NCBI GenBank assembly: GCA_964016885.1
Contig: OZ024748.1
Span: 20,026,001-20,090,000, forward strand
Direction: 5' to 3'
DNA: 64,000 bases
Source of the DNA: Eledone cirrhosa
Lineage: Eukaryota
Shown here: positions 4,280-51,312 of the stretch, in pieces
How positions within the stretch are numbered: the first letter of the stretch is position 1
Layout of the letters: every line of letters begins with the position of its first letter
Notes under the pieces: model-generated
Told to the model about the DNA's origin: nothing
Databases searched by the model: none
Seen by the model: only the letters and a program-made list of their open reading frames with translations
Position numbers and translations under genes: made by a program

Positions 4280-4440
4280 ACAGCTAGATCCAACAGTTCA
4301 GATCTAGCTGTCGAAACAGCTGGAGCTCAACCATCGGGATCCTGATTCTTTTCCTATTACCCACTCTACTACCTTAAGTATTGAGTACTCTGGTGCATTA
4401 TGGTCCACCTGGTATCTTACCACACCCTCTTTGTTCTTTA
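4280..4440 (+). mobile_element. Family E insert (3' half of hammerhead plus tail)
   Basis: ACAGCTAGATC/GATCTAGCTGT hairpin-GAAA-CAGCTGGAGCTC...TC-GGGATC, then tail ATTACCCACTCTACTACC...GGTCCACCTGG shared with six other copies; ends in (TA)n. Confidence 0.7.
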
Positions 4441-19639: not shown

Positions 19640-19838
19640 TGAGAGGGTGCGGTAAAATACCAGGTGGACCATAACCCACCAGAGTACTCGATACATGGGG
19701 TAGTAAAGTGGGTACTATAAAAAGATTCAGGACCCCGACGGCAGAGCTCCAGCCATTATGACAGCTAAATCCATTCAGATCTAGCTGCCAAAAGAGCCAG
19801 AGCTCAGAGCTCAGCCGTCGGGGTCCTGAATCTTTTCA
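19640..19838. mobile_element. Family E fold-back
   Basis: Inverted tail, then arms AAAAGATTCAGGACCCCGACGGC...GCCGTCGGGGTCCTGAATCTTTT centred ~19774. Confidence 0.75.
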
Positions 19839-19926
19839 TATATATATATATACATATATACATATATACATGCATACATATATATATATATATATATATA
19901 ATGTATACATATACATACATACGTAC

Positions 19927-21835: not shown

Positions 21836-21960
21836 AAAACCAACTAATTCAAGATCACACCATAGATTATATGAATTAAACAATACATCATTTTCATCGT
21901 TGTCATCTTCATCATCATCATCATCACCATCATTATGATCATCATCATATATATATATAT

Positions 21961-22325
21961 GAAAAGATTCAGGACCCCGATGGCTGAGCTCCGGCCTTTC
22001 GACAGCTAGATCCGAACTGAAGCAGCTATCGGGGGCTTGAACCTTTTCATATTACCCACTCTACTACTCCAAGTATCGAGTATTCTAGTGAGTTATGGTC
22101 CACCTGGTTTTTTACCACACCCTATCTGATATACATATATATATATATATATAACGATAACGAAGGAAATGTGGTAAGGAACCAGGTGGACCATAACGCA
22201 CCAAAGTACTCAATACTTAGGGTAGTAGAGTGGGTAATAGGAACAAGTAGGACCCCGACGGCTGAGCTCAAGAATTAGCCATTGAAACGGCTTGAGCTCA
22301 GCCGTCGGGGTCCTACTTGTTCCTA
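21961..22325. mobile_element. Two adjacent family E fold-backs separated by (TA)n
   Basis: 21961-22128 (short inverted arm plus sense tail) and 22153-22325 (inverted tail plus GAAACGGCTTGAGCTCAGCCGTCGGGGTC). Confidence 0.75.
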
Positions 22326-22328
22326 TAT

Positions 22329-29217: not shown

Positions 29218-29679
29218 AGATCCTTCTTTTAGCGTCCACAGACATTGTGTATAAAGGCAAAGTGTTTACAGCTATCATTTTTGGAGATATGTGGCTTAGT
29301 GGTAAGGTTGTTTGGTTCATGATTGTAAGATCATGTTTTCGACTCTAGCCCACACTAGGTGGCAGATTTTGTCCCTAAGCAAGACACTTTATTTTCATGC
29401 TGCTCCAGTAGTGTGAGGATTTATCATCCTTTTCTCCTGTCCTAACGATATTGAAAGCTCAGTATCAGAACAAAAATGACCTTTTGCTGCCATTACCTCT
29501 TGTTTCTCCTCATCAGGAAGAGACAGGGTCAACCTTACGATGTTATATATATATTCTATTAGTTAAAATCTCTATATATATCTTCTGTAGTAAGATACAG
29601 CATTGAAACAAACATTTCTTAATTTACCAGTAATTTCTTTGATGTCATGGATGCACAGTCATTCTACCCTTTTCACATT

Positions 29680-31732
29680 AACCAGCTCCCAAACCAGCCT
29701 TGGTATGCTCCAATGAAACCAGCCCCCAAACCAGCCTTAGTATGGTACTATGAAACCAACCCCTAAACCAGCCTTGGTATGGTCCAATGAAACCAGCCCC
29801 TAAACCAGCCCTGGTATGGTACTACCAAACCAGCCCTGGTATGGTGCTATCAAACCAGCCCTGGTATGGTACTATCAAACCAGCCCTGGTATGGTACTAT
29901 CAAACAAGCCCTGATATGGTACTATCAAACCAGCCCTGGTATGGTACTATCAAACCAGCCCTGGTATGGTACTGCCAAACCAGCCCTGGTATGGTACTAT
30001 CAAACAAGCCCAGGTATGGTACTATCAAACCAACCCTGGTATGGTACTATCAAACAAGCCCTGGTATGGTACTATCAAACCAGCCCTGGTATGGTACTAT
30101 CAAACCAGCCTTGGTATGGTACTATCAAACCAGCCCTGGTATGGTATTATCAAACCAGCCCTGGTATGGTACTGCCAAACCAGCCCTGGTATGGTACTAT
30201 CAAACCAGCCCTGGTATGGTATTATCAAACCAGCCCTGGTATGGTACTATCAAACAAGTCCTGGTATGGTACTATCAAACCAACCCTGGTATGGTACTAT
30301 CAAACAAGCCCTGGTATGGTACTATCAAACCAGCCTTGGTATGGTACTATCAAACCAGCCCTGGTATGGTATTATCAAACCAGCCCTGGTATGGTACTGC
30401 CAAACCAGCCCTGGTATGGTACTATCAAACCAGCCCTGGTATGGTACTATCAAACAAGCCCTGGTATGGTACTATCAAACCAGCCCTGGTATGGTACTAT
30501 CAAACCAGCCTTGGTATGGTACTATCAAACCAGCCCTGGTATGGTATTATCAAACCAGCCCTGGTATGGTACTATCAAACAAGTCCTGGTATGGTACTAT
30601 CAAACCAACCCTGGTATGGTACTATCAAACAAGCCCTGGTAGGGTACTATCAAACCAGCCCTGGTATGGTACTATCAAACCAGCCTTGGTATGGTACTAT
30701 CAAACCAGCCCTGGTATGGTATTATCAAACCAGCCCTGGTATGGTACTGCCAAACCAGCCCTGGTATGGTACTATCAAACCAGCCCTGGTATGATACTAT
30801 CAAACAAGCCCTGGTATGGTACTATCAAACCAGCCCTGGTATGGTACTATCAAACCAGCCTTGGTATGGTACTATCAAACCAGCCCTGGTATGGTATTAT
30901 CAAACCAGCCCTGGTATGGTACTGCCAAACCAGCCCTGATATGGTACTATCAAACCAGCCCTGGTATGGTATTATCAAACCAGCCCTGGTATGGTACTAT
31001 CAAACATGCCCTGGTATGGTACTATCAAACCAACCCTGGTATGGTACTATCAAACAAGCCCTGGTATGGTACTATCAAACCAGCCCTGGTATGGTACTAT
31101 CAAACCAGCCTTGGTATGGTACTATCAAACCAGCCCTGGTATGGTATTATCAAACCAGCCCTGGTATGGTACTGCCAAACCAGCCCTGGTATGGTACTAT
31201 CAAACCAGCCCTGGTATGGTACTATCAAACAAGCCCTGGTATGGTACTATCAAACCAACCCTGGTATGGTACTATCAAACAAGCCCTGGTATGGTACTAT
31301 CAAACCAGCCCTGGTATGGTACTATCAAACCAACCTTGGTATGGTACTATCAAACCAGCCCTGGTATGGTATTATCAAACCAGCCCTGGTATGGTACTGC
31401 CAAACCAGCCCTGGTATGGTACTATCAAACCAGCCCTGGTATGGTATTATCAAACCAGCCCTGGTATGGTACTATCAAACAAGCCCTGGTATGGTACTAT
31501 CAAACCAACCCTGGTATGGTACTATCAAACAAGCCCTAGTATGGTACTATCAAACCAGCCCTGGTATGGTACTATCAAACCAGCCTTGGTATGGTACTAT
31601 CAAACCAGCCCTGGTATGGTATTATCAAACCAGCCCTGGTATGGTACTGCCAAACCAGCCCTGGTATGGTATTATCAAACCAGCCCTGGTATGATACTAT
31701 CAAACAAGCCCTGGTATGGTACTATCAAACAA
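29680..31732. repeat. 25-bp tandem satellite, ~78 copies
   Basis: Unit CCCTGGTATGGTACTATCAAACCAG; longer diverged units at the left edge. Confidence 0.98.
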
Positions 31733-32129
31733 ATTCCCCTCTTCTAAAAGGTTCCTATTTAAACATCTTCCAACATAATTTGATATAAGAACATTTTGTC
31801 AAGCTATGTTACTAATACCATCTTAATAATTAAAAAATTAATAGTTTCAGTAAATCCTTCCAAATTCTACATTAATTAATTAATCAGACTGTATTTTATT
31901 AGATATATGGTAATGAAGACAATGCCCAAATAGGATTGTGTGTGTATGTATATATGTATGTATGTGTATATATGTATGTGTGTATGTATGTGTGTGTGTC
32001 TGTGTGTATGTACATATATATATATACATATATATAGTTCGAAAACTGCATATAAGATAATTGCATTAAGAACCAATATCCTGGAGCTCAAGTCAATGTT
32101 ATATCTCCACAGATATAATAAAATACAGG

Positions 32130-46513: not shown

Positions 46514-46515
<2 letters not shown>

Positions 46516-46702
46516 CGAAGGAAATGTGGTAAGGAACCAGGTGGACCATAACGCACCAAAGTACTCAATACTAGAGGTAGTAGAGTGGGTAATAGGAACC
46601 AGTAAGACCCCGACAGCTGAGCTCAAGCCGTTTCGACGGCTAATTCTGGACTGAATTAGCCGTCGAAACGGCTTGAGCTCAGCTGTCGGGGTCTTACTGG
46701 TT

Positions 46703-46706
<4 letters not shown>
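46514..46706. mobile_element. Family E fold-back
   Basis: Perfect ~64-bp arms around TGGACT (46647-46652); right arm GAATTAGCCGTC-GAAA-CGGCT-TGAGCTC-AGCTG-TC-GGGGTC. Confidence 0.85.
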
Positions 46707-47895: not shown

Positions 47896-49260
47896 TGCAA
47901 TGGCATGATGTGGTTTACTGAATGTATTTTAAAGATGAGCCACTTCCTATAACATTATTCCAGTCCAGTAAAGCTGGAAATTAAATTGAGTTGTGCTTGT
48001 AATCCAAATGACCATTCTTATCACACACTGCATTACACAGGATCATCATCATCATCATCACCGTTTTACGTCCGTTCTTCCACGCTAGCATGGGTTAGAT
48101 GGGTTGTCTTGTTGTGGGCAGTAGCCGGTCGGCTGACCTTGTCTTGCTCATACAGTAACTGGTTCTGGCTTGATTTCTACAACTGGATGCCCTTCCTAAC
48201 ACCAACCTCATTTACAGTGAGTGCTGAGTGCTTTTTTTTCTGTGGCACCTACATATCTACTTTAAAGTGTGGGCTGGGTAAATTTTTGCCGTGGCACCTC
48301 CACGACCACTTTGCAGTGGAACGACAGGGACCCCAGTCCTATCATCTCATTTCTACAGCTGAGTAAACGGGAGCAATGTGAAATAATACATCACCCGGAC
48401 CAAGTTGAGAAATACATTAAAGGCACACATGCCTGTGTAGTGCTCAGTCACTTGCATGGTAATGGCATATGTTGGTTGTTCTGTTGGACAAACTACTGAA
48501 GCATTTGTCTTTGGAAAGAGAGAGACAGAGACAGACAGGGAGAGGATAGCAAAGAGAAAGAGGGTGTGTGTGAGTGAGAGGAGAGGGAGAGTGTGTATGT
48601 GTGTGAGAGAGAGAGAGTGAGCGAGAGAGAGAGTGAGAGTGTGTGTGTGAGAGAGACAGAGAGAAAGAGTGTGTGAGTGTGAGTAGGAGAGAGAAATGCA
48701 GAGAGAGAGAGTGTGTGTGAGAGAGAGTGTGTGAGAGTGTGCGTGTGAGAGAGAGAGTGAGTGTGTGTGTGAGAGAGACAGAGAGAAAGAGTGTGTGAGT
48801 GTGAGTAGGAGAGAGAGAGAGAAATGCAGAGAGAGAGAGAGTGTGTGTGTGAGAGAGAGTGTGTGTGTGAGAGAGAGTGTGTGTGTGAGAGAGAGAGCAA
48901 GAGATAGAGAGGGGTGTGTGTATGATGGCTTTTAATGAACTATAATAGAGTGAAATAGTTTATTTAGGTTCATCCAACCCCCTGTTATTCTGGAGTTTTC
49001 CTCTTGACTTGCAGCTGTTTTCTCAGACAGGGAAACAAAAACTGGGTCTGAGCCAACAACCCCATGCCAGATGAAACTCAAGAGAAATAGGGCACTGGAT
49101 CAGCCTAATTACGACATATATAGATATATAACAAAGAGGTGTGGTAAGATACCAGGTGGACAATAACGCACCAGAGTACTCAATACTTAGGGTAGTAGAG
49201 TGGGTAATAGGAAAAGTGTCAGGACCCATACGGCTGATATATATGTGTGTGTGTGTGTAT

Positions 49261-51129: not shown

Positions 51130-51312
51130 CAATTTGGGATTCTGATGGCTGAGCTCCTGCCGTTTCAACAGCTAGATCTGAACAGATCATTGAAACGGCA
51201 GGAGCTCAGCCATCGGGGTCCCCCCACATTTTTCATATTACAAACTCTACTATGCCAAGTATCCATTACTCTCGTGAGTAATGGTCTAACTGGTGTTTAC
51301 CGCTTCCTTTCT
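51130..51312. mobile_element. Family E fold-back, diverged
   Basis: GATGGCTGAGCTCCTGCCGTTTCAA / TTGAAACGGCAGGAGCTCAGCCATC plus tail. Confidence 0.7.

What the first reader, a model, noticed from the sequence alone, without database searches (positions are those of the whole stretch)
46514..46706. Family E folds back at the presumed helix II loop, erasing the CUGANGA half
In several copies (4280, 19640, 46514, more loosely 51130) the symmetry axis lies about 12 nt plus a short loop upstream of GAAA-CGGCT-TGAGCTC-AGC(C/T)G-TC-GGGGTC, which reads as the 3' half of a hammerhead (helix III, GUC site, helix I'). No family E copy here retains the 5' core. Inference: nascent cDNA self-primes on the helix II hairpin, so the ribozyme fold sets the insertion architecture. 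Prediction: the parent reads GACCCC-CTGANGA-GAC(A/G)GCTA...loop...TAGC(C/T)GTC-GAAA.
Basis: inference. Interest (0 to 1): 0.72.

Follow-up and report, generated by a model that had tools for sequence, protein, structure and literature searches.

The report
Penelope stumps and swapped-pair hammerhead
This mirror-image insert is the short end of a very abundant Penelope-like jumping gene whose full-length parent carries a hammerhead-shaped RNA motif with a swapped core pair; its two arms were likely copied separately up to a fixed RNA start inside that motif rather than by one copy folding back, and a few percent of copies stop exactly at the predicted cut site, likely a trace of self-cutting in living cells.

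Summary
The palindrome is real: 55-nt perfect arms, 6-nt centre 12 nt upstream of GAAA, one 78-nt tail, in (TA)n. It is the stump of a 3.54-kb Hydra-clade Penelope-like element; the tailed arm differs at 1 of 139 nt from a parent unit with an intact ORF. The parent has the predicted hammerhead, but its core mostly reads UUGA-N-AA (U3-A8), not CUGANGA, and helix II is long and covarying. Ends are strongly clustered: 82 of 101 young arms stop in a 15-nt zone inside helix II. Fold-back of one cDNA does not fit: in 12 of 43 pairs the tail-less arm reaches at least 5 nt further than the tailed arm. Best reading: two target-primed cDNAs run to a fixed RNA 5' end, likely a transcription start, and are joined head-to-head. 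About 2% of copies end exactly at the predicted cut site, about half as often in a lineage rich in mismatched C3·A8 cores. Architecture and U3-A8 are in print; I did not find the cut-site and start-site stops in print, but this scan noted both before on other DNA. No RNA data.

The parts
46514..46591 (-). 78-nt tail, present on one arm only (segment between the two inferred RT start sites)
   Evidence: sequence; continues into the 5' UTR and ORF in full-length copies
46592..46652 (-). tailed arm; 5' end at the A of AGTCCAG in helix II; with the tail it is 139 nt, 1 mismatch to the parent unit in L329
46653..46707 (+). tail-less inverted arm, 55 nt, ends at the proximal start site in (TA)n
46647..46652 (.). 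6-nt unpaired centre; parent sequence belonging to the tailed arm
46665..46692 (+). 3' half of the hammerhead fold: GAAA, helix III, GUC, predicted cut between 46687 and 46688, helix I 3' strand (mirror copy on the other arm, 46607-46634)
   Evidence: cleavage not tested
4290..4424 (+). older-subfamily copy, tailed arm plus 11-nt inverted remnant
19641..19840 (-). decayed older-subfamily two-arm copy
21958..22119 (+). older-subfamily two-arm copy; tailed arm short
22159..22326 (-). young two-arm copy in which the tail-less arm reaches further 5' than the tailed arm
49138..49237 (-). single tailed fragment
51130..51311 (+). decayed older-subfamily two-arm copy

Best explanation
The feature is a short head-to-head insertion from a Hydra-clade Penelope-like retrotransposon, likely made when the element's enzyme nicked both strands of a (TA)n repeat, copied its RNA twice from two internal start sites up to a fixed RNA 5' end inside helix II of its hammerhead motif, and the two cDNA ends were then joined. 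Shown: the parent (3.54-kb unit, 717-719-aa ORF), the one-tail rule, the clustered ends, the hammerhead-shaped fold with a U3-A8 core, and a second small peak of ends at the predicted cut site. Inferred: two independent primings (from arm asymmetry, and by analogy with the in vitro PAc data); that the main stop is an RNA 5' end, most likely a transcription start at the initiator-like T(T/C)AGT(C/T), 231 nt before the ATG, which would leave the 5' copy of the ribozyme without its core; that the cut-site class records real self-cleavage of read-through RNA. The ribozyme fold therefore marks where the arms end, but likely does not cause the inversion.
For: Parent: tandem arrays of 3.54-kb units, intact ORFs in 3 of 6 arrays examined, neighbouring units 99.8% alike, motifs collinear by eye with Hydra-1_Obim. 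One tail in 41 of 41 two-arm insertions. Ends: 82 of 101 arms within 0-14 nt upstream of AATTAGCC, none at 15-44, 19 beyond; the older subfamily peaks at the same position, 19 of 44 core-less arms. Tail-less arm longer by 5 nt or more in 12 of 43 pairs and by 15 or more in 6 of 43. 5 of 26 independent tail-to-ORF copies begin in the zone, run into the ORF and restart at or near it, so the template began there and was not a transcript of a short palindrome. Fold: helix IIa has three pairs changed on both sides; covariation score 0.156 against 0.093 shuffled, 0 of 500; minimum-energy folds give the three-helix junction in 3 of 4 copies. Core: 5,686 matches, position 8 = A in 100 of 100 listed while position 7 takes all four bases; old subfamily 90 U3-A8, 6 U3-G8, 3 C3-G8, 1 C3-A8 of 100 listed, p=0.002. 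Cut site: 25 of 30 inspected loci begin at GUC^G, 8 are GACCCC-W-GGGGTC with both arms ending there; in a search not fixing the end, 38 of the first 50 of 211 mini-palindromes have an arm ending at the cut and none passing it, 13 with both arms unambiguous (hand count; p=6e-8). Lineage contrast: 211 of 7,382 (parents 17 of 17 U3-A8) against 122 of 8,106 (parents 12 C3-A8, 5 U3-A8, 1 C3-G8 of 18), p=6e-9. PMC11167929: RT starts at two sites that bound the tail and extends both strands.
Against: No RNA 5'-end data. A cap-derived extra G was not found: 4 G against 3 A at the expected position in unbiased loci. None of the 12 independent tail-to-ORF copies without a nearby second arm and with an intact upstream arm starts at the zone; all run further upstream, so a second, read-through RNA class must be assumed. 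The TTAGT motif also pairs in helix IIb, so its conservation is not independent evidence of a promoter; I saw no DPE-like motif at the usual spacing (by eye). The two arms match in lineage in nearly all pairs; only 1 of 41 is clearly mixed, which fits one RNA copied twice but also fold-back. Arm asymmetry could come from later deletion. The cut-site peak is also present in the C3-A8-rich lineage (31 of 49 loci by hand) and is weaker in subfamily A (about 20 of 50); 10 of 50 blunt junctions are ambiguous by one base; the lineage contrast is confounded by age, and the parent sample was shaped by my own searches. Rfam gives no hammerhead hit. Two of four folds are no more stable than shuffles.
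Confidence: 0.62

Rival explanations
1. Two primed cDNAs, but the main stop zone is an RT stall or RNA break caused by the ribozyme's helix II fold in a long read-through RNA, not a transcription start; the fold would then set the architecture, though without self-priming.
For: The zone lies on the 3' strand of helix II in three subfamilies with covarying pairs; long copies never start at the zone; no cap-G signal.
Against: Ends lie near the top of a weak, partly mispaired helix (71% paired), after helices I, III and IIa have already been copied, and almost none lie in the next 40 nt; about a fifth of arms pass through; restarts at the same point inside ORF-bearing copies.
Confidence: 0.22
2. 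One reading: one nascent cDNA ends in helix II, folds back and primes on itself, making the second arm.
For: A natural ATTC/GAAT microhomology in one parent lineage reproduces the window's own centre; arms nearly always match in lineage; PMC3846280 reads PLE junction palindromes as self-priming (on an antisense template).
Against: A copy of the tailed cDNA cannot hold more 5' sequence than its template, yet it does in 12 of 43 pairs; the recurrent centre occurs in both orientations relative to the tail (4 against 1 of 41); 0- or 1-nt centres such as GACCCC-W-GGGGTC leave no loop to fold; arms of another hammerhead-bearing family are joined head-to-head to this one in L031 and L045.
Confidence: 0.1
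3. The cut-site class is not cleavage but a stop at the base of helix III or joining favoured at the palindromic CG, and the motif is a catalytically dead protein-binding fold.
For: Lineages with a mismatched C3-A8 core spread to many copies (24 of 100 rows); the peak persists in that lineage; PMC11167929 found cleavage unnecessary in vitro and no reads at the cut site.
Against: A stall at helix III predicts one more base than seen in the 13 unambiguous double ends; CG joining does not explain W centres; frequency tracks the 3-8 pairing about twofold; U3-A8 is a compensated pair kept across three subfamilies.
Confidence: 0.25

Closest known systems
Hydra-clade C-terminal EN+ Penelope-like elements, nearest named Hydra-1_Obim (Craig et al. 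2021, PMC8557442; read passages, section 11, supplement part 2 and search hits)
   Same: RT plus C-terminal GIY-YIG, DKT, CxCX5C linker, CxxC and CxH, (TA)n target, hammerhead near the 3' end, inverted 5'-truncated copy with a one-sided tail
   Different: 3.54-kb unit (most listed are under 3 kb); RWR for RWK; 78-nt tail instead of 30-40; hammerhead has U3-A8, a long two-part helix II and a 5-6-bp helix III, unlike the listed Hydra-1_oBim motif
U3-A8 min-HHR of Schistosoma mansoni Cercyon PLEs (Cervera and De la Pena 2014, PMC4209133; read parts 1-2 of 4)
   Same: same core covariation, short helix I, long helix II, in a pLTR
   Different: here helix III is full and could fold as a monomer; C3-G8, C3-A8, U3-G8 and U3-A8 states coexist in one family
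PAc Poseidon element of Anolis (Frangieh et al. 2024, PMC11167929; read parts 1-2 of 4)
   Same: two internal RT start sites bounding the tail, both strands extended, AT-rich target
   Different: PAc's ribozyme overlaps the ORF start; no reads were found at its cut site, whereas here genomic copies end there
D. virilis Penelope internal promoter (Schostak et al. 2008, PMC2377424; passages)
   Same: TATA-less promoter inside the pLTR with an initiator
   Different: there a DPE and an intron follow the start; here the inferred start lies inside helix II and no DPE was seen

Membership tests
Hydra-clade PLE (parent) | single ORF, RT with C-terminal GIY-YIG | tested here: met
   719-aa ORF with YRDD and VIY...YIG; weak GIY-YIG hit E=0.069 on a fragment, none on the whole protein; 2,018 homologues at E<=1e-10, the best carrying PF01541; collinear by eye with Hydra proteins
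Hydra-clade PLE (parent) | DKT in place of DKG; RWK motif | tested here: met
   SDKTG and RLRWR (one conservative change)
Hydra-clade PLE (parent) | CxCX5C linker, CxxC and CxH, no CCHH | tested here: met
   CNCPDRSIC, CNLC, CKH read by eye; absence of CCHH judged by eye only
Hydra-clade PLE (parent) | placement in the Hydra clade of an RT tree | not tested
   reference sequences were seen only in the supplement; no tree was built
EN+ PLE insertion unit | inverted 5'-truncated copy, one-sided tail, (TA)n target | tested here: met
type I hammerhead ribozyme | three helices around the core, G10.1-C11.1, A15.1-U16.1, NUH | tested here: met
   86% of cells paired; covariation confined mainly to helix II; helices I and III vary little
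type I hammerhead ribozyme | canonical CUGANGA core | tested here: not met
   U3-A8 in most parents, C3-A8 in about a quarter, CUGAGGA only in minor lineages; U3-A8 is a published natural variant
type I hammerhead ribozyme | self-cleavage | not testable with these tools
   indirect only: ends at the predicted site
MITE or Helitron-derived element | fixed internal sequence moved as a unit between termini | tested here: not met
   centre differs from copy to copy and comes from a retroelement parent

The most novel reading that the evidence does not exclude
Most insertions of this Penelope family are paired strong-stop-like cDNAs: the promoter sits inside helix II so the 5' ribozyme is born disarmed, the U3-A8 ribozyme at the 3' end cuts in the germ line, and lineages that drifted to C3·A8 lost much of that cutting yet kept spreading, giving a natural in vivo activity series for the hammerhead 3-8 pair; jumps from the RNA 5' end to downstream RNA build the tandem pLTRs.
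Probability: 0.35. Interest if true: 0.72.

Novelty: new variant of a known kind. Interest (0 to 1): 0.5.

Why it matters
How Penelope-like elements make inverted ends, and whether their hammerheads cut in vivo, are stated as open in PMC8557442, PMC4209133 and PMC11167929. This family has tens of thousands of young arms, intact parents and coexisting core variants, so it gives sharp tests: where the RNA starts, whether one or two cDNAs make the palindrome, and whether cut-site insertions scale with ribozyme activity. It also shows that standard CUGANGA descriptors and Rfam miss an abundant PLE hammerhead. The single copy at 46514 is itself an ordinary stump, and the scan has seen the same stop classes in other genomes.

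Tried and rejected
Literal prediction: CTGANGA within 5-30 nt of GAAACGGCTTGAGCTC gave 38 genome matches; none of the 27 inspected was a parent with GACCCC-CTGANGA, they were junction accidents; the true core lies about 62 nt upstream, outside that gap. Type II hammerhead downstream of the tail: not seen in full-length copies. Rfam: nothing at gathering score in the window, no hammerhead at E<=10 in four parent loci. Cap-derived G: 19 of 23 in all loci but only 4 of 7 in unbiased loci, so rejected as a selection effect (its Y and A tallies overlap and count as one set). A 3' splice site at the zone: no shared upstream exon. Positional control was mis-specified and returned the lineage total (5,096); one search replaced it. 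Scripts had errors and were redone. RNA: no RNA holder listed; contigs of four runs show a steep depth step at the zone but may come from the source sample and cannot show a start. Protein: no PDB match, Atlas did not answer, single-sequence model pLDDT 32 and unused. Not in print as far as searched: searches found no report of PLE copies ending at the cut site or at a start inside helix II; subscription journals, Repbase and preprint supplements were not searchable. From 10.64898/2026.07.22.740005 I read part 1 of 5; from PMC7151607 and PMC3846280 passages only.

Full report
Observation. The 193-nt feature is a 78-nt tail plus a palindrome with perfect 55-nt arms and a 6-nt centre, 12 nt upstream of GAAA, set in (TA)n. 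The copies at 4280, 19640 and 51130 have the axis at the same place, with more decay. No 5' core of this family is in the window. The window lies in a 3.0-Gb animal genome, likely an octopus (inferred from the protein's likeness to Hydra-1_Obim). A 30-mer of the arm has 31,953 exact matches. Thirty close copies share both outer ends but differ in the centre, and diagnostic changes are mirrored in both arms, so the junction is made anew at each insertion.

The parent. Non-inverted copies exist (1,458 exact matches of one upstream pattern). They lead to an RT plus GIY-YIG ORF with the Hydra-clade marks of PMC8557442. Head-to-tail arrays of 3.54-kb units were found; 3 of 6 arrays examined have intact 717-719-aa ORFs. 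The window's tailed arm matches one such unit at 138 of 139 nt. In full-length copies the arm and tail sit in the pLTR just before the ORF. An inverted truncated copy with a one-sided tail is the described PLE arrangement, and PMC11167929 ties the tail to two internal RT start sites with both target strands extended.

The ribozyme. About 62 nt upstream of GAAA all three subfamilies read ACCCC-(T/C)TGA-N-AA-G-N-TC(A/G)GCTA. ACCCC pairs with GGGGT after GUC; helix IIa covaries between subfamilies at three pairs; a weaker helix IIb caps it. Minimum-energy folds show the three-helix junction with an open core in 3 of 4 copies; two of the four beat shuffles (z -2.4 and -4.2) and two do not. Of 5,686 genome matches, the 100 listed all have A at position 8, any base at 7, and T (76) or C (24) at 3. 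In the old subfamily G8 goes with C3 (3 of 4 against 6 of 96, p=0.002); an old sublineage keeps CTGAGGA, while other such hits may be single mutations. U3-A8 is published for S. mansoni PLEs. GAAA lies 121 nt from the 3' end, about where Hydra-clade hammerheads sit. Rfam misses it. Cleavage is untested.

Where arms end. In the first 101 exact arm matches on C1 that could be scored, 82 end 0-14 nt upstream of AATTAGCC, none at 15-44 nt and 19 beyond. A strict count peaks at the G and A of TTAGTCC in young and old subfamilies. Five of 26 independent copies that run from the tail into the ORF begin in this zone and carry a second arm within 1 kb, joined from ORF sequence straight to the zone. The template therefore ended there and continued into the ORF. 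I read this as a fixed RNA 5' end, most likely an initiator-like start (consensus recalled; internal PLE promoters), 41 nt before the cut site and 231 nt before the ATG. Against this: no cap-G signal, the motif is also base-paired, and the 12 long ORF copies with an intact upstream arm all start further upstream, which needs read-through RNA as a second template class.

One cDNA or two. All 41 two-arm insertions scored have exactly one tail. In 43 adjacent pairs the tail-less arm reaches further 5' by at least 5 nt in 12, the tailed arm in 7, and 24 are within 4 nt; for 15 nt or more the counts are 6 and 2 (16 other tailed arms had no scorable adjacent partner). A fold-back copy cannot exceed its template. 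One pair mixes lineages (L273), two loci join this arm to another family's arm (L031, L045), and in L108 the tailed arm lacks about 1.1 kb that the other arm has. Later deletion could explain some cases, and arm concordance suggests one RNA is usually copied twice.

Ends at the cut site. 172 tailed arms of the window's lineage have non-parental bases right before GGGGTC; 25 of 30 inspected begin there, 8 as GACCCC-W-GGGGTC. A search allowing any centre up to 24 nt found 211 loci; by hand, 38 of the first 50 have an arm ending at the cut and none passing it, 13 with both ends unambiguous and 10 blunt and ambiguous by one base. That is roughly 2% of 7,382 tailed arms. In a sister lineage whose sampled parents are mostly C3-A8 the rate of such mini-palindromes is 122 of 8,106, against 211 of 7,382 (p=6e-9), but the peak is still there (31 of 49), and it is weaker in subfamily A (about 20 of 50 listed of 63). 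This favours real cleavage of read-through RNA but does not prove it.

Verdict. It is a new family of a known clade with a known kind of core variant and a known insertion shape. The start-site and cut-site stops were not found in print. I reached them before reading the scan's notes, which report the same in other genomes; those notes are not independent support. Interest 0.5.

Noticed in passing
L332 (G000:C2:356029000-356032500): Seven or more tandem 299-nt units, each with the whole U3-A8 hammerhead (helix IIb deleted up to the A of AGTCC), tail and ORF start: a retrozyme-like array derived from this PLE, in line with 10.64898/2026.07.22.740005.
   Followed up: partly
L031 and L045, upstream of the arm: Head-to-head partner comes from another hammerhead-bearing family; in both loci that partner ends at the same point, which reads (T)CAGTT on its own strand, again initiator-like (n=2).
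   Followed up: no
window 59613, 37784, 29167, 26350, 13074, 8494: Other CTGATGA...GAAA motifs from unrelated repeat families, likely further PLE hammerheads.
   Followed up: no
window 29652-31850: 25-nt tandem array, about 77 overlapping 300-nt copies listed.
   Followed up: no
L032, L039, L044: Family arm joined to long palindromes of other sequence, suggesting multi-template insertions.
   Followed up: no
L288, L204, L301 junctions: Runs of A/T at the junction beyond what the parent has, suggesting untemplated A-addition to cDNA ends.
   Followed up: partly
G000:C1:91476610-91487262, C1:437200348-437210966, C2:320551593-320558706: Three- to four-unit full-length tandem arrays of the young subfamily.
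   Followed up: partly
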